Shown here: one piece after another, positions 2,339 through 32,752 of the stretch
How positions within the stretch are numbered: the first letter of the stretch is position 1
How the letters are laid out: each line of letters starts with the position of its first letter
Virus record (IMG/VR): IMGVR_UViG_3300044840_000109
Span: 1 to 64,000 of that record
Reading direction: 5' to 3' (one strand)
Length of the DNA: 64,000 nt
Source: a virus
Lineage: Duplodnaviria; Caudoviricetes
Program-made: the position numbers and the translations under genes
Notes under the pieces: generated by a model
The model's database searches: none
Told to the model about the DNA's origin: nothing
Seen by the model: the letters and a program-made list of their open reading frames with translations, nothing else

Positions 2339-2692
2339 GTGGACGCCAAGATCTTCACTTTCACCGCGCTGACGTACGGCGATGTGGACTACGTGGAGAA
2401 GGAGTTCACGATCCGCGCCCCGCTGTACCACGGCGGGGGAAAGAACCTGCGAGGGGACACCATCGTCCCGGGGCGTCGGACGAATGCATGGGGTGACGAG
2501 GGCGACCGTTCCAGGCACGTGTACTTCACCGCGCGCCTGGACGTCGCGGTCGCGTACGCCAAAGCGACCGGCGGCCACGTCTACGAGGTCGAGCCCACCG
2601 GCAAGATCATGTACGACAGTGGTGAGGACTACAAGACCCCGGACCCGCTCACGATCATCCGCAAGCTCGACCCGGCTGAGTGGGCGCAGTAA
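2339..2692 (+). CDS. Arr-like NAD-dependent ADP-ribosyltransferase
   Basis: LYHG..L.GD.I.PG..N, HVYFTA.LD.AV, VYEVEPTG, YKT.DPL.II match Arr-family motifs (FYHGT, HIYF, YIVEPTG, YRT.EPL). Confidence 0.75.
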   Translation: MDAKIFTFTALTYGDVDYVEKEFTIRAPLYHGGGKNLRGDTIVPGRRTNAWGDEGDRSRHVYFTARLDVAVAYAKATGGHVYEVEPTGKIMYDSGEDYKTPDPLTIIRKLDPAEWAQ

Positions 2693-10484: not shown

Positions 10485-11477
10485 ATGGCCCAGGAAATCC
10501 GCGTCACCATCACCGACGACATCAACGGTAAGGAGGGCGCCGAGACGATCGCATTCGCGTTCGATGGACTGGCGTACGAGATCGACCTCGATCCGGAGAA
10601 CGCCTACCAGCTCCGCGAAGCACTCGCCCCCTACGTCGGCGCCGCCCGCAAGCTGTCCCAGGCCAAGTCGGCGTCCAAGCTGGCGCCGGCCAAGGCGTAC
10701 GACACGGCGGACAACGGATCGATCCGCAAGTGGGCGGCCGAGCAGGGCCTGGACGTGCCGGCCCGCGGACGCATCCCCGGCGCCGTCCGGGAAGCATGGG
10801 AGCTGCGTTACACCGTCGCGGGAAAGGAGAACCTGGCCATGCTCAAGGATGACTCCGCCTACGCAACGGGTGCCGCCACGCAGATCAAGGACGCGGACTG
10901 GACGTTCGCCGCGGCGAACAAGAGCGCGGCCAGCACCAAGGCCATCGAGGTCATTCGCTACGCCCGCAACCACGGAGGCGTCTTCCCGGAGCACCGCCCC
11001 ACCTTCAACAGCGACTCCGTCACCACGCTGATCCGGAAGGGGTTCGGGACGCGGGTGGACGATAAGATCGCCCACGTGAACGGCGCCGGCCTGGCCCTCC
11101 TGGAGCAGTGGGAGACCGCGCAGGCGGCGAAGGCGAAGACCGACGTGAAGCCGAGCGCCCCGCACATGAGCGCCCAGCGCACCGACCTCCCGGCCGACAA
11201 GACCGTGCTGCCGCACGGGAAGACCGCCTCGCAGTGGAAGACGCGTCAGGCGGCCGGCCTCGTTCCGGTGGAGGGGAGCACCGACGAGCAGATCTTCGCC
11301 GCGCTCTCCCGCAAGCATGTCGAGATGCTGAAGCGTCTTGTCGAAGGCGTGCCCTGCGACAAGATCAGCAACTACAGCACCAGCGCCGTGACGCTCCGGA
11401 ACCTCGGCGTCGTCGGCTTCGATGACAAGATCACGCCCCGCGGCGTGGACGCGCTGACGTGGTGGGACAAGGCTTGA
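10485..11477 (+). CDS. lsr2: Lsr2 family nucleoid protein with a ~225-aa C-terminal extension
   Basis: DD..G..ETI.FAFDG..YEIDL dimerisation domain; IRKWA..QG..V..RGRIP AT-hook; extension to 330 aa. Confidence 0.9.
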   Translation: MAQEIRVTITDDINGKEGAETIAFAFDGLAYEIDLDPENAYQLREALAPYVGAARKLSQAKSASKLAPAKAYDTADNGSIRKWAAEQGLDVPARGRIPGAVREAWELRYTVAGKENLAMLKDDSAYATGAATQIKDADWTFAAANKSAASTKAIEVIRYARNHGGVFPEHRPTFNSDSVTTLIRKGFGTRVDDKIAHVNGAGLALLEQWETAQAAKAKTDVKPSAPHMSAQRTDLPADKTVLPHGKTASQWKTRQAAGLVPVEGSTDEQIFAALSRKHVEMLKRLVEGVPCDKISNYSTSAVTLRNLGVVGFDDKITPRGVDALTWWDKA

Positions 11478-14794: not shown

Positions 14795-16843
14795 ATGCCG
14801 ATTGTGGCACGCCCGCGTCTAGATGTTGCAGCCGCCATCGTCTACGCAAAATACACACGCGTCTCGACGCTCGATCAGCTCGAAGGATTCGGCCTGGAGG
14901 CGCAGGATGACATCTGCGACGGATGGGCCCGCCGCTTCCCCGATGCGCGCTGCCATGACGAATATCGCGAAGAGGCGATCTCCGGGTCGCTGGAATCCCG
15001 ACCCGCGATGGACAGGCTCATCGGCGACGCTCGAACTGGCGCTTTCAACCGCATCCTCGTACCGAAGGTCGACCGCATCGGCCGTACGGGACGCGCGGCG
15101 TACCAGTGGGTCTGGAACATGGCGGACATCGGCATCCACTTCATCTCGGTCCAAGAGGGCATTGACACCAGCACAGAACAAGGCTGGAACGCCTTCATGC
15201 AGTACGTCACGTTCTCGGAGATGGAATGGCGTCGCATCCGCGAAAGGACGTTCGCCGGGCGCGAGTTGAAGATCAGCTTCGGCGGGTGGCCCGGTGGCCC
15301 TGCGCCGTATGGGTATCGGATCGCCGTCGACCCCGACAACGTGGTCAAGAAAAAGCGCTTCTCGGTACTCGTCACCGACGAGCGCGAGTCGATGATCCTC
15401 CACGTCGCCGCTGACCTCATCATCGGCGGCAAGAACATCACCCAGACTGCCATCGAACTCAACGACCGCGGTCTCCTCACACGCAGCAGGGTGCCCTGGA
15501 CCGTCGGGAACCTGCGCAACCGACTGCTTTCGGAAACGATCCACGAGGGTTACGTGGTCTACCGCAAGATCAACCGGGGGAATGGGAAGCGTACGACCAC
15601 GCGCTACGAGGACGGTACCCCTGTCTACGGAGAGCCGGTGAACATCGGCGTGCCTCCCATCTTTACGGAGGAGCGCGCTAAGCAGCTGCGAGCGGCGATG
15701 CGGATGGTCGGCTTCGTGCGTAGCGACGAGGAGGTGTACCCGCTGTCCGGACGGATTTTCGGGTCATGCGGCAACTACTACACCGGGGTCAAATCCGCAG
15801 GTGAGCGGGCTTATCGCTGCAAGGGCGGCTTGGGGTCGGATTCCTGCGGAGAGATGTACTTCCGTGCGGACGAGATCGAAGGAGCCATCTGGTCGGAGCT
15901 GACGAAGCTCTTCCGTGATGAGACGCGCCTCAAAGATATGGCGGCCGAATGGCTGGACAGCCTCCCTGGGGATAAGTCCAAGTACGAGCGCCGCGTGGAG
16001 GAATTTGACGCGAAAATTCGAAAGCAGAGCAAGCTGATCGAGGAGACCGTCCCGCAGTACATGCGCGAGAAAATCGACCCGAAAATCATGGCTGCCGCGG
16101 TGCGCGACTTGCAGGCGGAGATGGAGCGCTTCGTTGAGCAGCGCGACTTGGCCCGCCAGTGGCTGGATGAGTACCGGGAGTACGAGCGCCAGGCGCTCAA
16201 CCTTTCCGCTATCGCCGAGTCGGCCAAGGAGCGTCTGGATAATCTGAGCAGCGTTGAGCAGAAGGAGATCTTCGAGATGTTCAACCTGAAGGTTGTCCCA
16301 GGGGCAACGAACCTGGTCCGACGCAGCGGGGTGCGATGCGCGGTGATGAACTGGCATTACGAGACGGGGACTCTGGTCCCTCCGGATCCGACGGATGAGG
16401 AGTGGGCGAAGGTCGAGGCGTATTTGCTTACAAAATTCTATCGCCAGCATTTCACCGGCCCCTCGGATGTACGGACGCACTTCAATGGCTGCCTCCACCG
16501 GCTTCGTCACGGTATCCCGTGGGCGGATATGCCTGACACGTGGGGCCCGCAGAATCGGCTGAGGGAACGTCAGCTCACCTGGTGGAAGAAGGGCGTGTGG
16601 CCCGAGATGCTCGCCTTGCTTCACGCGGACCGACGCGGGGCGCCAGCGTACCAGCGTCCGTCTCTCCCGCAGCTTACGGTGACCGGGCAGCTCCGGGGCG
16701 GTCTGCTGGCAGAGGTGCGGACGGAGGGCCCCCAGGGGTTCGGGAAGGATCACATAAAGAAGACCGTTGATTCTTCACTTCGTCATACCGGCTTCGAAAG
16801 TCCGATACAAGCAGGAGCAGATTTCACGGTGATCGTAAAATAG
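14795..16843 (+). CDS. int: large serine recombinase (integrase) with C-terminal IS5/DUF4096-like helical domain
   Basis: YTRVST catalytic Ser; SG....RP.M..L; DRIGR; recombinase domain; Zn-ribbon/coiled coil; tail TDEEW...GIPWADMP..WG...W...GVW. Confidence 0.92.
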   Translation: MPIVARPRLDVAAAIVYAKYTRVSTLDQLEGFGLEAQDDICDGWARRFPDARCHDEYREEAISGSLESRPAMDRLIGDARTGAFNRILVPKVDRIGRTGRAAYQWVWNMADIGIHFISVQEGIDTSTEQGWNAFMQYVTFSEMEWRRIRERTFAGRELKISFGGWPGGPAPYGYRIAVDPDNVVKKKRFSVLVTDERESMILHVAADLIIGGKNITQTAIELNDRGLLTRSRVPWTVGNLRNRLLSETIHEGYVVYRKINRGNGKRTTTRYEDGTPVYGEPVNIGVPPIFTEERAKQLRAAMRMVGFVRSDEEVYPLSGRIFGSCGNYYTGVKSAGERAYRCKGGLGSDSCGEMYFRADEIEGAIWSELTKLFRDETRLKDMAAEWLDSLPGDKSKYERRVEEFDAKIRKQSKLIEETVPQYMREKIDPKIMAAAVRDLQAEMERFVEQRDLARQWLDEYREYERQALNLSAIAESAKERLDNLSSVEQKEIFEMFNLKVVPGATNLVRRSGVRCAVMNWHYETGTLVPPDPTDEEWAKVEAYLLTKFYRQHFTGPSDVRTHFNGCLHRLRHGIPWADMPDTWGPQNRLRERQLTWWKKGVWPEMLALLHADRRGAPAYQRPSLPQLTVTGQLRGGLLAEVRTEGPQGFGKDHIKKTVDSSLRHTGFESPIQAGADFTVIVK

Positions 16844-16941: not shown

Positions 16942-17163
16942 ATGGAAAACGAGCGCCGCTTCGAAATTCGAGGCAAGCAGGCGGTCACAGTTGACGACCG
17001 GTACGCGTATCTCTGGGGCGGTGACACGCCCCTCGCGGTGGGTGACCGGGTTGTCCTCGGGGGAAGCGCGTTCAGCTCCGACTGGGTGGGTACCGTGACC
17101 GCCCTGGGAAGCACCTACGACGGGCACCACAGCTACATCCTCGACCGCCTGGAAAAGCCGTGA
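16942..17163 (+). CDS. small SH3-like protein
   Basis: AGAGGA RBS; L.VGDRV.L...W.GTV. Confidence 0.7.
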   Translation: MENERRFEIRGKQAVTVDDRYAYLWGGDTPLAVGDRVVLGGSAFSSDWVGTVTALGSTYDGHHSYILDRLEKP

Positions 17164-17393
17164 TCGATCCCAACGACTCCGCGCGTCAGCTCGTCCTGGA
17201 CGTCCTGGAGAAAACCAACATGCGCCAGGTCGAGGTAGCGCGGCGCATGGGGCTGACACCGAAGCACGTCAACCAGGTCCTGCGGGGCCGCGTGAATATG
17301 ACCCTCGCAGTGCTCGACGGGATGCTCCATGTCTGTGGGTACCGACTCGTGCTGAAAGCCGTTGAGCGCCCCGTGCGGAAAATCGACCTTTAA
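17160..17393 (+). CDS. XRE-family HTH regulator
   Basis: MRQVEVARRMGLTPKHVNQVLRGRVNMT. Confidence 0.85.
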   Translation: MIDPNDSARQLVLDVLEKTNMRQVEVARRMGLTPKHVNQVLRGRVNMTLAVLDGMLHVCGYRLVLKAVERPVRKIDL

Positions 17394-17891: not shown

Positions 17892-18140
17892 ATGGATCGG
17901 CTGTACGTCTATGACGCCTACGTGAAACGCATGAGCGATGGTGAGATCAAGACCAAGGAGTTCGCCTCGGCGTCGGCTGCGTTCGACTTCCTCTGGCCGT
18001 CGCTCGAAAAAGTCTGGATCGGTCCCCCGGGGTCGGCCGGCGTGGAAGACGGTGCAGCGTGGCTCGCTCTCGCGGCCGGAGAAGCCATCATCACCGGTGA
18101 CGGCTACGAGTACCGGATTGAGAAGCGGGAGCCGCAGTGA
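17892..18140 (+). CDS. hypothetical protein
   Basis: TGGAG RBS; GTGA overlap with next gene. Confidence 0.7.
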   Translation: MDRLYVYDAYVKRMSDGEIKTKEFASASAAFDFLWPSLEKVWIGPPGSAGVEDGAAWLALAAGEAIITGDGYEYRIEKREPQ

Positions 18141-18523
18141 AGCGCTTTCTCATCCCCGCGGCGTTCGTCCTCGCGGCGCTGGCGGGGTGTAACTCGACCG
18201 GAGCGGGCGGTGGGGCGCCGGCCAACGTGCAGGATTGGGCGTACGGGACGTTGACGGTGACCGGGTGCGCGCAGGACAACGGCCTGTTGGTGATACCGGG
18301 GCCGGACGTAACGATCAAGAACACCAGCTCGAAGGTGGTCAACCTCGCGGTGAACCTGGGGATGGACCCGGGGACGCTCTGGGCGATGTCCGATGGGAAG
18401 GGGTATCCGGATGTGACGCTGCAGCCGGGTGAATCGGAGGACTATACGATCGGCGACGGCAGCGGCTTCACTCCCCCCGATGACCCGTGTGCGCTGCCGA
18501 TCCAGATCCTCACCGACTCGTAA
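18137..18523 (+). CDS. lipoprotein
   Basis: MKR + hydrophobic core + LAGC lipobox. Confidence 0.8.
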   Translation: MKRFLIPAAFVLAALAGCNSTGAGGGAPANVQDWAYGTLTVTGCAQDNGLLVIPGPDVTIKNTSSKVVNLAVNLGMDPGTLWAMSDGKGYPDVTLQPGESEDYTIGDGSGFTPPDDPCALPIQILTDS

Positions 18524-18569: not shown

Positions 18570-18809
18570 ATGCCCGATATGTTGCTTTCTGTCGCTGCTG
18601 CCGACTACCCCCAGGCGTTGGCGCGCTGGACCGAAACGGTCGCGCGCGTCTTCCCGACGGAGTACGAGATTCTCGACCTGACCGCCCTCGCCGACCTGAG
18701 CGTGGCCTTCAGATGGCTGTGGAGCGCGAGGTTGGGTGGTACCGCGGATGAAGTGGACCACGCGATCGGCGTCTACTCCCGCGCGGCCATCCTGAGCTTG
18801 ATCAACTAG
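18570..18809 (+). CDS. hypothetical protein
   Basis: coding-like frame ending where the convergent STAS gene ends. Confidence 0.55.
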   Translation: MPDMLLSVAAADYPQALARWTETVARVFPTEYEILDLTALADLSVAFRWLWSARLGGTADEVDHAIGVYSRAAILSLIN

Positions 18810-19180
18810 CGGCGGACGGGGAGCGCCTTCAGCATCATTTCCTTGCCGCTGAGGGCATCCTCGACGCTCGCGTAGAGCCGGAAGACCTTGTCCAGCCCGG
18901 TGACCTGAAAAATCTTGTAGATGCGCTCGGTTGGGATGACGAGCACCACGGAGCCTTCCAGCGTCCGCAGGCGCTTGAGTATGGCGACCATCGCCCCGAG
19001 CCCCGTGGCGTCCAGAAATTCGAGCTCGCTGAAGTCGAGCACCAGGTCACGGGCGCCGTCATCGATGATGGCGGAGATACTGCTGCGCCATATGGGCGCC
19101 ACGTACAGGTCGATTTCGCCCTCGGTGGCGATGAGTGTGCGCCCGGCGGGCAGGGGCTTCGAGGTTATTTGTGCGTCCAT
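18806..19180 (-). CDS. STAS-domain anti-sigma factor antagonist, BldG/RsbV-like, Ala at the phosphoacceptor Ser
   Basis: GEID.Y.AP..R; FLDATGLG (canonical FLDSTGLG); ERIYKIFQVTGL.KVF. Confidence 0.92.
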   Translation of the reverse strand: MDAQITSKPLPAGRTLIATEGEIDLYVAPIWRSSISAIIDDGARDLVLDFSELEFLDATGLGAMVAILKRLRTLEGSVVLVIPTERIYKIFQVTGLDKVFRLYASVEDALSGKEMMLKALPVRR

Positions 19181-19319
19181 ATGCGCAGCTTGCCAGAAGT
19201 GACCACGCGAACACGCACGGTGTCGAAGATCATTTTGTGGGGCGGCGTTTTGTTACCCCTTCGAGTCTTCCGTTGGTCACTCAGGGCCTACGGTGGGTCC
19301 ACGCAAAGAGAGGGATGTG

Positions 19320-19742
19320 ATGGGGCAAGAGAGAGATCCGGCGGTGGAGATCGCTACCGCTGTGCGCCTGGTGGGGGAGGTCACGCTGTTGGCCAAGGCG
19401 TTCGATGCCGACGTGCGTGGCACGGTGCGCGCGCTGGACGTCCTGCCGGCGAAGGAGCTGCTGCGGCTCACCGAGAAGTACGCGGAGATGCAGCAGTTGG
19501 AGCATCGCGCGCTGGAGGCCGCCAACAGCGTGGTGAAGGATTTCGGGCACCGGGCTGCCGCAGGTGGGCTGCTGGGGAAGTACGCGGTCTTGGAGGAGGC
19601 GTGCCTGCGGGCGCATCGGGCCTGGGGGCCGTATATGGCTCGGGCGGTCATAACTTCCGCCGGGGAGCACCCGCAGGCGTTCTCGGCGTTGGTACTGGAA
19701 ACGCGGAGCCCTGTCCCCGTGCAGGGGCCGGCGGCGGAGTAA
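19320..19742 (+). CDS. hypothetical helical protein
   Basis: GAGAGGG RBS; isolated + strand gene. Confidence 0.65.
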   Translation: MGQERDPAVEIATAVRLVGEVTLLAKAFDADVRGTVRALDVLPAKELLRLTEKYAEMQQLEHRALEAANSVVKDFGHRAAAGGLLGKYAVLEEACLRAHRAWGPYMARAVITSAGEHPQAFSALVLETRSPVPVQGPAAE

Positions 19743-19747
19743 CTCGG

Positions 19748-21229
19748 TCATTCCACGATTTCGGCGTCGAGGATCCCCATCTGATCCAGCGCCTCTTGGG
19801 CTGACACTGCTCCGGCGGGTGAGAGGGCCGGTACCCCCCCGGCCTTTTCTCCGAACAGTCGTGACATGAGTCCGATCTGCCCGTCGCCCTTCTGCTGCAC
19901 CTTCATGCTGAAGGTGAATCCGGCCTCTTCGATGTCGGACTTGATCTTGATGTAGCGCGTGAGGCGGTCCATTTCCTTGGAGAGGTTCTGGTCGGCGTAG
20001 CCGCCATCGGCCTCTTCCGCCAGGCGCATGAAGAACACCCGGGCGCCCTGCATGGCGATGAGCGAGTCGAGCAGCGAGAGGTACTGCTCCTTGGTCTTGA
20101 CCCGGATGGGGATTTCGTAGGCGCAGTTGGCCCCGGGCTGGAAGTCGGGGCATTTGTTGGCCAAAAAACATCCGGTGCACTGGCGGATGTTGAGGTCCAC
20201 CACGTTGATGCGGTGCTCTGTGCGGGATTTCCTCTCCCCGGAGTCCGGGTCCGTGTAGCGGTGGGTGAATGCCTCGGACTCGATTCCGGGGAGCAGTTTT
20301 GTCACCCGTTTGGCGGGGGGTTCAGTTACTACCTCGGCACTGTCCTGCGGGAGCGTCGCCGTAGGTACCCCCAGGGCGGTTTCCTCGGTTTCGCTGTGAG
20401 CCGAATCTGGCGTGGGAGTTACTGCGTCGCCGTGGCGCCGAGAGATGTAGTCGACCTGGTGCTGCCAGGACCACAGCGAGAGTTTGAGGACCTCGGTGGG
20501 GTTGTCCGCTTCGATGAGGTCGGCGTCGAGGCCGATGTCGGTGAATAGGACGCGGTGCCTCTTCCGCGACTGTTCCTTGTAGCGGGCGGGGTAGCGGCGC
20601 AGTTCCTTGCCCGTCCACACGAACGTCTCGCCGAAGGACATGCTGCTCAGCCAGGTGGTAGAGCTGACGGAGTCCCAGTCGGCGGCGAGCATGAGTGGGG
20701 GGCTGGAGAAGCCGAAACCGTGCAGTCGATTGCTTCGAGCAAGCGAACGTAGTACTGGCACGATGTCCCGGTCACCGCAGGTTCCCTGACCCACCGCAAT
20801 ACGGTTGTAGCGGTCCGCGAGACGTCGAAGCTCCTCCACTCCCCATTCCTCGTGCCAGACGACGATGGCTTTGTCGGGGTCGAGTCGTTCGCGTCGATTT
20901 TCGATCCACTCCTTGCCCATGGCGAGGGCGTCGAACTCGATATAGGCGTCGGCGCGCTGGAGGTTCTGTGCCACGAAATTGTCGTAGCTGGTGGCGATGT
21001 TGGCGATTTCCTCGGGAGTGACGGTGACGCCCTCGCGGTTGAGGGTGTGGCATCCGGAGTCGATGAGGACGCCCTGTTCTTCGCCGAATTTCTCGGTGAG
21101 GAGCCAGGGTTTGGTGAACTTGTTGCGGCGGCGCAGTCCCATGAAGGACAGGGAGACGTGCGGGATTTCCTGCTCGGCAAGCAGCTTCCTGTGCCCGTGG
21201 ACCTCCGCGCCGCCGTAGTAGAAGCGCAT
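19748..21229 (-). CDS. TGT/DpdA-like TIM-barrel protein with C-terminal Cys4 domain
   Basis: LIDSG, EFD, HGFG, DSVSSTTW..G motifs; CTGC...CP.F..G..C. Confidence 0.65.
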   Translation of the reverse strand: MRFYYGGAEVHGHRKLLAEQEIPHVSLSFMGLRRRNKFTKPWLLTEKFGEEQGVLIDSGCHTLNREGVTVTPEEIANIATSYDNFVAQNLQRADAYIEFDALAMGKEWIENRRERLDPDKAIVVWHEEWGVEELRRLADRYNRIAVGQGTCGDRDIVPVLRSLARSNRLHGFGFSSPPLMLAADWDSVSSTTWLSSMSFGETFVWTGKELRRYPARYKEQSRKRHRVLFTDIGLDADLIEADNPTEVLKLSLWSWQHQVDYISRRHGDAVTPTPDSAHSETEETALGVPTATLPQDSAEVVTEPPAKRVTKLLPGIESEAFTHRYTDPDSGERKSRTEHRINVVDLNIRQCTGCFLANKCPDFQPGANCAYEIPIRVKTKEQYLSLLDSLIAMQGARVFFMRLAEEADGGYADQNLSKEMDRLTRYIKIKSDIEEAGFTFSMKVQQKGDGQIGLMSRLFGEKAGGVPALSPAGAVSAQEALDQMGILDAEIVE

Positions 21230-29544: not shown

Positions 29545-29829
29545 TCAGGCGGTCATGACGCGGATGGCCACGCCCATGAGGTCCGTGTCGCGCTGGCGCG
29601 ATACCCCGTGGAAGAACGTGATCTTCTCCACCAGGTCGACGCCGTAGCTGATGACGAATGACTGCGCGATGGGGATGGCCTTGACCGCCTGGTTCACCGC
29701 GCCGGCGCCCACCGCCTTGAGGACGACCTGGTTGCCGTTGTTGATTGCGTGCGCGATTGCGCTGCCGAGTTCCGGGGGGGACGTGGTTGTCTTCACCCGG
29801 AAGACCGTTTCCTTTACCTGATTCTCCAC
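29545..29829 (-). CDS. spoVS: stage V sporulation protein S (Alba-like) homolog
   Basis: FRV...SP..LG.AIA; KAVGAGAVNQAVKAI.IA..FV...GVDL. Confidence 0.88.
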   Translation of the reverse strand: MENQVKETVFRVKTTTSPPELGSAIAHAINNGNQVVLKAVGAGAVNQAVKAIPIAQSFVISYGVDLVEKITFFHGVSRQRDTDLMGVAIRVMTA

Positions 29830-31521: not shown

Positions 31522-32417
31522 GCGGCCATCTCCGAGTAGTAGAGGCAGCTCTTGCAGCCTGCGGAGTGGTTGATGTTGCAGACCGGTGGCGAGCCGAATT
31601 TCAGGGCGTCGGTGATGATCTGCGCGCCCTCGATGAGGGGCTCGGAGAATTCCTCGTTGTAGAGGAGGGTGAAGGCCTTGGCCTGCTGGTCGGCCTTGAA
31701 CTCGTAGATGAACGTGATGCGGTCCACCTCCAGGTCCTCGAAGTGCCGCGCGAGGTAGAGGTAGAGCTGACCCTGGCGCAGGGCGGAAGGCAGGGGCCGG
31801 CGGAAGTCACGCCACATGCGGGCGAGGTCCACGACGAGTCCGCGGCCTTCCATTTCGAGTTCGTATTTCGCCAGGAACTTGGGGTCCTCGTAGCGCAGGG
31901 ATCCCAGGCCGAGCGTCTTGATCTCGATGAGGCAGTTGTCGTCGGGGCAGTAGCCGTCGGTGCTGCCGCCGATGGTGAGGGCGGGGGCGTTGAGTTCCAC
32001 CTCGGCGTATTCCAGGTCCCGGCAGAAACACCGCGGGCATTGTTGCGGCCGGGCGTCGAGCCAGAACTTGTGCTTGCAGGACCGGCAGAGCCAGTCACCC
32101 GCCAGGCGGTCCATCTCGGTGAGCCATCCCTGCCACTTCTTGTGGGTGTTGTGGCCCTCCTGGAAGATGTTCTCCCTGGTGAACGCGGTGGTCTTTGCTT
32201 CGCCGCCGTTGCGCAGGAGCTTGTAGTACGCCGCTCGGTGGCACCATCCGGGCTTGACCATCTCGGATGGGTGCAGGACATCGGTGCGGCGGCCGTCGGG
32301 CTGGTAGGCCTTGGCGACGACGTGCTTCTGAATGTCACCGAAAAGAACCTCGGTGCTCTTGGAGGCTTCCAGGTAAGCGGCAAGTCCGGGGCCGGGCTTT
32401 ACGATGCTTCGAGCCAC
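31518..32417 (-). CDS. Cas4-like PD-(D/E)XK exonuclease
   Basis: HPSE...C; G...H; GSTDG...LIEIKT; Q.QLY; C...CKSC.Y. Confidence 0.85.
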   Translation of the reverse strand: MARSIVKPGPGLAAYLEASKSTEVLFGDIQKHVVAKAYQPDGRRTDVLHPSEMVKPGWCHRAAYYKLLRNGGEAKTTAFTRENIFQEGHNTHKKWQGWLTEMDRLAGDWLCRSCKHKFWLDARPQQCPRCFCRDLEYAEVELNAPALTIGGSTDGYCPDDNCLIEIKTLGLGSLRYEDPKFLAKYELEMEGRGLVVDLARMWRDFRRPLPSALRQGQLYLYLARHFEDLEVDRITFIYEFKADQQAKAFTLLYNEEFSEPLIEGAQIITDALKFGSPPVCNINHSAGCKSCLYYSEMAA

Positions 32418-32752
32418 AGGAGTTCCTCCGTGTCGGGTTGTCCTTCGGCGCGCCAGATCCAGCGCTCGGGCATTCCCGGGTAGCGCAGGCGCAGAGTGAG
32501 GCGGGCAGCGGGTGACATGCCGCCCCATATTCCGTAGTTCTCGCGGTTCTGCATGGCGGTGCGCAGGCATTCGTTTCGGCGCGGGCATATCTCGCCGTCG
32601 CGGCGGCCGTTGCAGAAGTCCATGGCGGCCTGGTCATTCTCAAAGAAAAGGTCGGGTCCGCCGTGGGTGGTGGAGTTTCGGCGGCACTTGGCGGCGCCGC
32701 GATGGTGCGCTTCGGACCAGTCGGGCGCTGGTACCTGGGGACGAATAGCCAT
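32399..32752 (-). CDS. whiB: WhiB family transcription factor
   Basis: four Cys (C...DLFF...C-X8-CP...C), GIWGG. Confidence 0.88.
   Translation of the reverse strand: MAIRPQVPAPDWSEAHHRGAAKCRRNSTTHGGPDLFFENDQAAMDFCNGRRDGEICPRRNECLRTAMQNRENYGIWGGMSPAARLTLRLRYPGMPERWIWRAEGQPDTEELLWLEAS

What the first reader, a model, noticed from the sequence alone, without database searches (positions are those of the whole stretch)
18806..19180. BldG-like anti-anti-sigma factor with the phosphoacceptor Ser replaced by Ala
Seen: the protein reads FLDATGLG; the Ala codon GCC is at 19007-19009 (- strand), while the rest closely follows BldG/RsbV (GEID.Y.AP, KIF..TGL.KVF). Known: the Ser in D-S-T/S-GLG (BldG S57, RsbV S56, SpoIIAA S58) is phosphorylated by the cognate anti-sigma kinase to inactivate the antagonist, and Ser-to-Ala mutants cannot be switched off. 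No anti-sigma kinase, phosphatase or sigma factor is visible in the window. Inference: a constitutive decoy that traps host anti-sigma kinases and frees SigB/SigH-type sigma factors, or acts dominant-negatively on BldG.
Basis: partly seen in the sequence, partly recalled or inferred. Interest (0 to 1): 0.82.

Follow-up and report, generated by a model that had tools for sequence, protein, structure and literature searches.

The report
Phage anti-sigma antagonist without phosphoserine
An actinomycete phage carries a lone copy of a bacterial switch protein (BldG/SpoIIAA type) in which the one serine used to switch it off is an alanine, so it may act as a permanently active tool for steering the host's stress and development programmes; this rests on a single sequence and is untested.

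Summary
Window 18806-19180 (-) encodes a 124-aa single-domain STAS protein with FLDATGLG. A58 (GCC, 19007-19009) sits exactly where SpoIIAA, RsbV and RsfB carry the phosphorylated Ser.

- **Family:** it passes Pfam STAS and TIGR00377 cut-offs. The predicted fold is canonical (pLDDT 93.5) and best matches SpoIIAA bound to its kinase.
- **Setting:** the gene lies inside a distant BRock-like actinophage, in an accessory block beside a serine integrase. The 81.6-kb record has no anti-sigma kinase, PP2C phosphatase or sigma factor.
- **Nearest relatives:** these are cellular BldG-type genes at only 44-49% identity. All 30 examined carry Ser, and 20 have a kinase gene directly downstream.
- **What changed:** of 14 columns conserved at 90% or more, the phage protein departs only at Ser58 (to Ala) and Leu64 (to Met).

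The main weakness is that no close relative exists in any collection searched. Conservation of the Ala cannot be tested, and GCC is one transversion from the usual TCC.

My best reading (about 0.5) is a kinase-proof antagonist that ties up host RsbW/ApgA/UshX-type anti-sigma kinases. No described viral anti-anti-sigma factor turned up in the searches made here. I rate it a new variant of a known kind, of moderate interest. The scan found nothing similar on other DNA.

The parts
18806..19180 (-). Gene for a 124-aa single-domain STAS protein (P0001), a BldG/SpoIIAA/RsbV-type anti-sigma-factor antagonist
   Evidence: ORF and translation. Pfam STAS E 3.5e-20. TIGR00377 at 75.3 bits, above its cut-off. 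AlphaFold2 pLDDT 93.5 with a canonical beta-alpha STAS fold. Foldseek top hits are SpoIIAA in complex with SpoIIAB, RsbV and RsfB.
19007..19009 (-). GCC codon for Ala58, at the position of the phosphoacceptor Ser and at the N-terminal cap of helix alpha2 (residues 58-73)
   Evidence: Sequence read. Alignments to 6m36, 1th8 and 4qtp. Model secondary structure. The column is Ser in 97% of 109 single-domain homologues. The homologues' Ser codon is mostly TCC, one transversion away.
19181..19319 (.). Intergenic stretch between the STAS gene and the divergently oriented ORFan; presumed to hold the promoter(s), inferred only
   Evidence: Gene layout. No sigma-70 consensus promoter found. No Shine-Dalgarno sequence before the ATG at 19180, so a leaderless or weakly initiated mRNA is possible (inference).
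19320..19742 (+). Context: divergent 140-aa helical ORFan, a possible but unsupported partner
   Evidence: Codon-position GC is coding-like. No Pfam, PHROG, NCBIfam or PADLOC match. No homologue among 5.8 billion clusters. The Atlas model is a helical bundle with no informative neighbours.
14795..16843 (+). Context: large serine integrase with a C-terminal DUF4096 segment, which opens the accessory/lysogeny block holding the STAS gene
   Evidence: Pfam Resolvase, Recombinase, Zn_ribbon_recom and DUF4096. phrog_95 integrase at E 7e-67.
17160..17393 (+). Context: small HTH_3 (Cro/CI/antitoxin-type) regulator in the same block
   Evidence: Pfam HTH_3 E 1.7e-5. Weak HigA-type match.
18137..18523 (+). 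Context: putative lipoprotein (signal peptide ending in a lipobox Cys), converging on the STAS gene
   Evidence: The translation shows MKRFLIPAAFVLAALAGC.... No family match.
19748..21229 (-). Context: DpdA-like tRNA-guanine transglycosylase, backbone gene of the BRock-like phage, flanking the block on the right
   Evidence: phrog_887 at E 2e-64. 40-41% identity to Streptomyces phages BRock, pSt2308, LuckySocke, GiJojo and Alone3. BRock has a similar layout without a STAS gene.

Best explanation
This is a phage-encoded, stand-alone anti-sigma-factor antagonist of the BldG type that cannot be switched off by phosphorylation.

Shown: the gene is intact and codes like its neighbours. The protein is a confident STAS fold. 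It keeps the motifs that in SpoIIAA and RsbV surround the phosphoacceptor (GEID, D-x-TGLG, TGL-KVF) but has Ala where the kinase would phosphorylate Ser. The phage carries no kinase, phosphatase or sigma factor of its own.

Inferred: when expressed, from the prophage or during infection, it docks on host RsbW/ApgA/UshX-type anti-sigma serine kinases. Because it cannot be phosphorylated it is never released, so it holds those kinases captive. SigB-family sigma factors (SigH, SigF and relatives) would then stay free, or host BldG would stay unphosphorylated. Either way the host's stress and development partner-switching network would be locked in one state to the phage's benefit.
For: - **Family and fold:**
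- **A58 at the acceptor position:**
- **Selective retention of conserved residues:** of 14 columns at least 90% conserved among 109 single-domain homologues, only S58 (to A) and L64 (to M) differ, and 28 of 34 columns at least 75% conserved are kept.
- **Where the identity lies:** identity to the BldG-type copy is concentrated in residues 57-62 (5/6, the mismatch being S to A) and 85-100 (12/16). Helix alpha1 is divergent at 3/13.
- **An Ala form can still bind the kinase:** engineered SpoIIAA S58A (1tid/1til) was crystallised in complex with SpoIIAB (PMC13373217 figure legend).
- **What normal relatives look like:** the nearest cellular relatives are Ser-bearing genes, and 20 of the 26 downstream ORFs scanned (30 loci) are HATPase_c_2 kinase genes.
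- **No phage partner:** no such gene lies anywhere in the 81.6-kb record.
- **Long residence in the phage:** the gene is flanked by phage genes on both sides and has the same GC content as its surroundings.
- **Host network is open to such interference:** BldG is pleiotropic and is bound and phosphorylated by several RsbW homologues controlling several SigB-like sigma factors (PMC8346170). Promiscuity of these interactions is noted in PMC4255298.
- **Other host-regulator look-alikes in the same phage:** WhiB, SpoVS and an Lsr2 fusion.
Against: - **Single sequence:** one cluster member on one contig, with no orthologue anywhere, so conservation of the Ala is untestable.
- **A one-base change suffices:** GCC is one transversion from TCC, the commonest Ser codon at this site in homologues. 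A recent private mutation or a base-call error would look the same.
- **Fast evolution:** the phage branch is very long (1.02 substitutions per site against a median of 0.049). This is also what relaxed constraint would give.
- **No expression signals:** no promoter, terminator or ribosome-binding site was recognised.
- **Host and binding untested:** the host and its anti-sigma kinases are unknown, and no binding was or could be tested here.
- **A contrary recollection:** from my own memory (Bignell et al. 2003, not retrievable here), a bldG S57A allele failed to complement a bldG mutant. So 'constitutively active' may be too simple, and the outcome could be a block rather than activation.
Confidence: 0.5

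Rival explanations
1. The Ala has no special meaning. The phage picked up an ordinary BldG-like gene, and the Ser-to-Ala change is a recent private mutation, an assembly error, or part of the decay of a gene under relaxed selection.
For: There is only one sequence and no orthologues. GCC is a single transversion from TCC, used by 28 of 50 homologues at this site. The terminal branch is very long. No partner genes and no recognisable expression signals were found.
Against: The ORF is intact with strong coding-type GC3 of 0.86 and a very confident fold. At about 45% overall identity it still keeps 12 of the 14 most conserved columns, and the hit falls on the third most conserved column. Its GC content matches the phage rather than the 69-76% GC of the nearest high-GC (BldG-type) cellular loci, which suggests long residence under purifying selection.
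Confidence: 0.2
2. It is a STAS protein with a partner other than a sigma-factor kinase. One option is a kinase-proof decoy or antitoxin mimic aimed at STAS-kinase-controlled immune modules (CapK/CapS, VapK/VapS/VapC type). Another is a binder of a phage protein such as the divergent 140-aa ORFan, with regulation independent of phosphorylation, as in redox-controlled RsfA.
For: STAS-kinase pairs do control anti-phage operons and a toxin-antitoxin system, and Ser-to-Ala blocks their switching (PMC13373217). Phosphorylation-independent antagonists exist, such as RsfA with its disulfide control (PMC7693655). The gene lies in a prophage accessory block where defence and counter-defence genes typically sit, and it is paired head-to-head with an ORFan. 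Natural cellular Ala variants exist (P0008 from Actinomadura violacea, and P0010).
Against: The protein is much closer to the BldG-type copy (46-49%) than to any other STAS paralogue (35% or less) in five genomes, and it groups with that clade. It has no wHTH domain as CapS does, and no PADLOC hit. There is no toxin, kinase or effector gene nearby. P0001 contains no Cys at all, so RsfA-style disulfide control is not possible (sequence).
Confidence: 0.2
3. It is still a normal phospho-switch, with the adjacent Thr59 acting as the acceptor in place of Ser58.
For: T59 directly follows A58. From my own knowledge, Thr serves as the acceptor at the equivalent position in some STAS proteins, such as RsbR.
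Against: T or S at position 59 is simply the family norm (T 79%, S 17%), yet the mapped acceptor is the residue at 58. SpoIIAA S58A retains Ser59 and was the variant crystallised with SpoIIAB. That it served as a non-phosphorylatable form is from my own knowledge. No kinase is encoded by the phage.
Confidence: 0.05

Closest known systems
[quoted passage not shown]
   Same: Single STAS domain of about 115-125 aa with the same motifs (GEID.Y.AP, FLD-x-TGLG, KIF..TGL.KVF). It is the closest cellular group at 44-49% identity and groups with that clade in the tree.
   Different: The cellular genes have Ser at the acceptor site and usually a HATPase_c_2 kinase gene directly downstream (20 of 26 downstream ORFs). 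The phage gene has Ala, has no kinase, sits on a branch about 20 times longer, and lies in a viral genome. Identity is too low to claim orthology (see the caution in PMC4255298).
Engineered SpoIIAA S58A (PDB 1TID/1TIL), crystallised in complex with the kinase SpoIIAB
   Same: It is the top structural match (Foldseek E 9e-10, TM 0.82) and carries the same Ala-for-Ser replacement in the same motif (FMDASGLG against FLDATGLG). It shows that the Ala form still docks on the kinase.
   Different: It is a laboratory mutant of a Bacillota sporulation protein at 25% identity, whereas the phage protein is a natural variant.
Phosphorylation-independent antagonists such as mycobacterial RsfA (redox-controlled), acting on UsfX/RsbW
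   Same: STAS-only antagonists that bind an anti-sigma factor without being controlled by Ser phosphorylation (PMC7693655; PMC8256260).
   Different: RsfA is cellular, lies next to an RsbW homologue, and is switched by a disulfide. P0001 has no Cys, no neighbouring partner, and is viral.
Phage-encoded regulators of host transcription and dormancy (T4 AsiA anti-sigma factor; sporulation-type sigma factors of Bacillus phages)
   Same: Viral genes that redirect host sigma-factor use or dormancy programmes (PMC7824862; bioRxiv 10.1101/2021.11.12.468384, listed).
   Different: Those are sigma or anti-sigma factors. This gene acts one level further up, as an anti-anti-sigma factor. I found no described viral example in the literature searches, in PHROGs or in verified phage genomes.
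CapS/VapS STAS proteins with CapK/VapK kinases (immune regulation; PMC13373217), and the kinase-STAS cassettes this scan noted in E. coli P2-like prophages
   Same: STAS proteins on mobile elements whose function is set by Ser phosphorylation. A Ser-to-Ala change locks the state.
   Different: Those always come with their kinase, and with an effector or wHTH domain. Here there is no kinase, no effector and no PADLOC match, and the sequence is BldG-like.

Membership tests
STAS-domain anti-sigma-factor antagonists (Pfam PF01740, NCBIfam TIGR00377; SpoIIAA/RsbV/BldG) | Sequence profile match above the curated cut-offs | tested here: met
   PF01740 at 72.2 bits (cut-off 22.6). TIGR00377 at 75.3 bits (cut-off 53.45).
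STAS-domain anti-sigma-factor antagonists (Pfam PF01740, NCBIfam TIGR00377; SpoIIAA/RsbV/BldG) | Beta-alpha STAS fold with the acceptor site at the N-terminus of helix alpha2 | tested here: met
   AF2 model with pLDDT 93.5 and elements E4-9, E15-23, H28-40, E45-56, H58-73, E77-81, H85-94, E101-103, H106-111. Foldseek TM 0.8 or more to 1tid/1th8/8ih8 (SpoIIAA, RsfB) and 0.72 to RsbV 6m36. This is a prediction, not a solved structure.
Phosphorylation-controlled partner-switching antagonist (canonical SpoIIAA/RsbV/BldG mechanism) | Phosphorylatable Ser (or Thr) in the D-S-[TS]-G-L-G loop | tested here: not met
   Ala58, codon GCC at 19007-19009. Ser occupies this column in 97% of 109 homologues.
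Phosphorylation-controlled partner-switching antagonist (canonical SpoIIAA/RsbV/BldG mechanism) | Cognate anti-sigma serine kinase (HATPase_c_2) encoded alongside | tested here: not met
   0 matches to PF13581 in the 81.6-kb record, against 20 of 26 downstream ORFs at the nearest cellular loci. A host-encoded kinase remains possible.
Phosphorylation-controlled partner-switching antagonist (canonical SpoIIAA/RsbV/BldG mechanism) | PP2C-type phosphatase (SpoIIE/RsbU) and target sigma factor in the same genome | tested here: not met
   0 matches to PF07228 and PF04542 in the record. The record is estimated to be 82% complete.
Phosphorylation-controlled partner-switching antagonist (canonical SpoIIAA/RsbV/BldG mechanism) | Physical binding to an anti-sigma factor and release of sigma | not testable with these tools
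   Requires two-hybrid, pull-down or in vitro transcription tests with host proteins, and the host is unknown.
BldG orthologue group | Groups with BldG-type genes rather than with other STAS paralogues | tested here: inconclusive
   46-49% identity to one copy per genome against 35% or less to paralogues. It lies inside the BldG-type group with 91/87 support, but on a very long branch, and that group also holds a Cys-bearing pair. No synteny.
   Single 124-aa domain, no kinase in the record, and no PADLOC hit for it or its neighbours at a meaningful E-value.

The most novel reading that the evidence does not exclude
This would be the first viral anti-anti-sigma factor: a kinase-proof BldG mimic that a temperate actinophage uses to lock the host's developmental and stress partner-switching network. 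For example, it could stop the developmental response that contains Streptomyces phage plaques, perhaps acting together with the phage's WhiB, SpoVS and Lsr2 look-alikes. A still more novel variant that the evidence does not exclude (about 0.07) is that it serves as a non-phosphorylatable decoy against kinase-STAS-controlled anti-phage systems.
Probability: 0.25. Interest if true: 0.8.

Novelty: new variant of a known kind. Interest (0 to 1): 0.55.

Why it matters
Partner switching (STAS antagonist, anti-sigma kinase, sigma factor) governs sporulation, stress responses and, in Streptomyces, aerial growth and antibiotic production. Development also limits the spread of phage in Streptomyces lawns (PMC10117723, listed). 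Phages are known to carry sigma and anti-sigma factors, but I found no described phage that intervenes at the antagonist level.

A natural version of the S58A 'trap' mutant carried by a phage would be a compact, directly testable example of a virus jamming a host phospho-switch. It could also serve as a ready-made tool for holding BldG-dependent sigma factors in one state. If the Ala is only a private mutation, the remaining finding is smaller but real: a BldG-type gene captured by an actinophage.

Tried and rejected
**Searches for orthologues, all without a close relative**
- tblastn of P0001 against 50,697 phage records gave 8 weak hits, none from an actinophage. The four examined are UNVERIFIED fragments with a kinase gene next to the STAS gene, so they look like ordinary bacterial operons.
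- IMG/VR searched by protein found nothing, and by alignment-derived pattern found nothing.
- A back-translated FxDATGLG DNA pattern gave 32 hits in IMG/VR. None aligned to the STAS protein beyond the motif and a few following residues.
- GTDB species genomes gave 47% identity or less over partial matches. JGI metagenomes gave 40% or less.
- The word-indexed 5.8-billion-cluster search gave 44% or less. The exhaustive 1.84-billion-representative search gave 53% or less over partial matches.

**Searches for kin of the phage itself**
- DpdA and DNA polymerase queries in IMG/VR found nothing.
- Only distant BRock-like Streptomyces phages appeared.

**Tools unavailable**
- Sevcikova et al. 2010 (PMC2953704) is not held. 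The BldG S57A result is therefore quoted from memory only.

**Ideas considered and rejected**
- That the gene is host flank rather than phage: phage genes lie on both sides and there is no GC break.
- That the integrase-STAS block is a discrete inserted element with terminal repeats: no convincing repeats.
- That a neighbour is a hidden anti-sigma factor: no family match, and the ORFan is an uninformative helical bundle.
- That a consensus promoter or terminator is present: none found, and downstream folding has a z-score of -0.6.

Full report
**1. The observation**

Window 18806-19180 on the minus strand is an open frame of 124 codons starting at ATG. It reads ...GEIDLYVAP...LEFLDATGLGAMV...YKIFQVTGLDKVF.... 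Codon-position GC is 0.64/0.40/0.86, the coding pattern of this 65% GC sequence. No in-frame start lies upstream, and the predicted first beta-strand begins at residue 4, so the ATG at 19180 is the likely start. No Shine-Dalgarno sequence precedes it.

**2. What the protein is**

- It matches Pfam STAS (E 3.5e-20) and STAS_2.
- It passes the curated cut-off of NCBIfam TIGR00377 'anti-sigma factor antagonist' (75.3 bits against 53.45).
- Its best matches among solved structures are all anti-sigma antagonists: a mycobacterial protein (4qtp), RsbV (6m36), SpoIIAA (1th8, 1tid) and RsfB (8ih8). In each alignment A58 falls on the phosphoacceptor Ser.
- An AlphaFold2 model built on 110 homologues is very confident (pLDDT 93.5, pTM 0.85). 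It has the canonical STAS order of strands and helices, and A58 caps helix 58-73.
- Foldseek ranks SpoIIAA in complex with its kinase SpoIIAB first (1tid_B, TM 0.82), followed by 4qtp, RsbV/RsbW and UsfX/RsfB.

**3. Where it sits**

The window is the first 64 kb of an 81.6-kb IMG/VR 'provirus' record. The parent contig is 112,096 bases, about the genome size of Streptomyces phage BRock and its kin.

Phage genes lie on both sides of the STAS gene:
- an Lsr2 fusion (10485-11477);
- a large serine integrase (14795-16843);
- a DpdA-like transglycosylase (19748-21229);
- a holin, a RecA/UvsX-like protein, DNA polymerase, helicases, primase and baseplate proteins.

DpdA is 40-41% identical to that of BRock-like Streptomyces phages. 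BRock has a comparable layout (lysis genes, DpdA, then small genes and a strand switch) but no STAS gene.

The STAS gene is a lone minus-strand gene within a small accessory block. The block runs integrase, HTH_3 regulator, unknown ORFs, putative lipoprotein, STAS gene, then a divergent 140-aa ORFan. There is no GC discontinuity and there are no flanking repeats. The gene is therefore phage-borne and compositionally at home.

The whole record has no HATPase_c_2 kinase, no SpoIIE/PP2C phosphatase, no Sigma70_r2 domain and no second STAS domain.

**4. How unusual the Ala is**

- In the best hits of the two protein searches, 183 of 197 STAS domains carry Ser at this column. Two carry Ala: P0008 from Actinomadura violacea and P0010.
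- Among 109 single-domain homologues the column is 97% Ser. Of the 14 columns conserved at 90% or more, the phage protein differs only here and at L64 (to M).
- A search of 301 Actinomycetota genomes found matches in 185, with best identities of 44-48%. Ten of the 301 genomes are unpublished (G002, G019, G049, G083, G089, G121, G149, G175, G227, G240), so the 185/301 tally includes them. None of the loci analysed further comes from them.
- All 30 best loci read FLDSTGLG or FMDSSGLG. Of 26 with a downstream ORF, 20 encode a HATPase_c_2 anti-sigma kinase.
- Five large actinomycete genomes hold 11-26 STAS domains each. In each, exactly one copy is 46-49% identical to the phage protein, and all the others are 35% or less. 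The residue tally is 22 Ser, 2 Cys and 0 Ala.
- A maximum-likelihood tree places the phage protein within the BldG-type group (91/87 support). Its terminal branch is 1.02 substitutions per site against a median of 0.049.
- Identity to the BldG-type copy is concentrated in residues 57-62 (5 of 6, the mismatch being the Ser) and 85-100 (12 of 16). Helix alpha1 has diverged (3 of 13). From my recollection of the SpoIIAA-SpoIIAB structures, these conserved segments form the kinase-facing surface. I did not compute contacts.

**5. The limit of the evidence**

No orthologue of this protein exists in any collection I could search:
- verified phage genomes;
- IMG/VR, searched by protein, profile pattern and DNA pattern;
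- GTDB species genomes;
- JGI metagenomes;
- the large protein sets.

No close kin of the phage itself turned up either.

The homologues mostly use TCC for this Ser (28 of 50), which is one transversion from GCC. A private mutation or a base-call error cannot be excluded from the sequence alone. Against simple decay stand the intact frame, the strong coding signature, the retained motif set and the confident fold.

**6. Mechanism**

The PDB holds wild-type G. stearothermophilus SpoIIAA (FMDSSGLG; 1th8/1thn) and the engineered S58A form (FMDASGLG; 1tid/1til). Both were crystallised bound to SpoIIAB, and the mutation is stated in PMC13373217. An Ala at this site is therefore compatible with docking on the kinase while removing the phosphoacceptor.

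[quoted passage not shown] The network is considered promiscuous (PMC4255298).

The most economical reading is that the phage protein binds host anti-sigma kinases, cannot be phosphorylated, and so stays bound to them. Which way the host phenotype would go is not predictable from sequence. From memory, SpoIIAA S58A over-activates SigF, whereas a bldG S57A allele failed to complement a bldG mutant (Bignell et al. 2003). I could not retrieve either paper.

Its position in an integrase-proximal accessory block suggests it may be expressed from the prophage. That is inference only.

The same phage also encodes a WhiB-family protein, a SpoVS homologue and an Lsr2 fusion. These had been flagged by first-stage notes. 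It is thus rich in look-alikes of host regulators.

**7. Rivals**

- A meaningless private mutation or decay (0.2).
- A different partner, such as a decoy for kinase-STAS immune switches like CapK/CapS or VapK/VapS, or the neighbouring ORFan (0.2). The paper for this rival is PMC13373217. The scan has noted kinase-STAS cassettes in E. coli prophages, always with a kinase. Here there is no kinase, effector or PADLOC hit, and the sequence is BldG-like.
- Thr59 as an alternative acceptor (0.05). T or S at position 59 is the family norm, and S58A SpoIIAA retains Ser59.
- RsfA-style redox control is excluded, because the protein has no cysteine (PMC7693655).

**8. Comparison and novelty**

By sequence and predicted fold this is a member of the STAS antagonist superfamily. 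It fails three defining features of the canonical phosphorylation-controlled module: the acceptor Ser, an adjacent kinase, and a phosphatase or sigma factor in the same genome. I therefore do not file it as a canonical partner-switching antagonist. It most likely works like a locked one.

Ser-less and phosphorylation-independent STAS antagonists are known in cells. Phage-encoded sigma and anti-sigma factors are also known. I found no described phage-encoded anti-anti-sigma factor in the literature searches. No PHROG family matches this protein well (best E 0.004).

My verdict is a new variant of a known kind. Interest is 0.55. The finding is real, directly testable and biologically suggestive, but it rests on one sequence with no evidence of conservation.

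Noticed in passing
window 14795-16843 (+): The large serine integrase (682 aa) carries a C-terminal DUF4096 segment (residues 533-605), the N-terminal domain of IS4/IS5-family transposases. It could be a fusion or the remnant of an IS insertion at the 3' end of the integrase gene.
   Followed up: no
window 10485-11477 (+): Lsr2 (dimerisation and DNA-binding domains, residues 1-105) is fused to about 225 further residues with no family match.
   Followed up: partly
window 32399-32752 (-) and 29545-29829 (-): A WhiB-family protein (Pfam E 2e-11) and a SpoVS homologue (Pfam E 1e-15) lie in the replication/recombination arm of the same phage. Together with the STAS gene and Lsr2, the phage holds several look-alikes of host developmental regulators.
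   Followed up: partly
window 2339-2692 (+): A small Arr-type (rifampin ADP-ribosyltransferase family) domain protein lies among the early genes (Pfam Arr-ms E 1.5e-7).
   Followed up: no
window 18137-18523 (+): A 128-aa ORF has a lipoprotein-type signal peptide (…LAALAGC) and no homologues in the family libraries. It converges on the STAS gene and is a typical candidate for a prophage surface or exclusion protein.
   Followed up: no
window 19320-19742 (+): A 140-aa helical ORFan is transcribed divergently from the STAS gene. It has no homologue in 5.8 billion protein clusters.
   Followed up: partly
window 1-64000: No tRNA genes were detected in the window.
   Followed up: no
L132-L135 (OR845010.1, OR846974.1, MT836626.1, MT837088.1): The four 'phage' database records examined that match the STAS protein are UNVERIFIED fragments. 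In each, a HATPase_c_2 kinase gene directly follows the STAS gene, so they look like bacterial rsbV-rsbW or spoIIAA-spoIIAB operons rather than phage genes.
   Followed up: partly
P0013, P0019, P0020 (database proteins of 280-409 aa): These tandem double-STAS proteins each have one STAS domain with Gly instead of Ser at the acceptor column.
   Followed up: no
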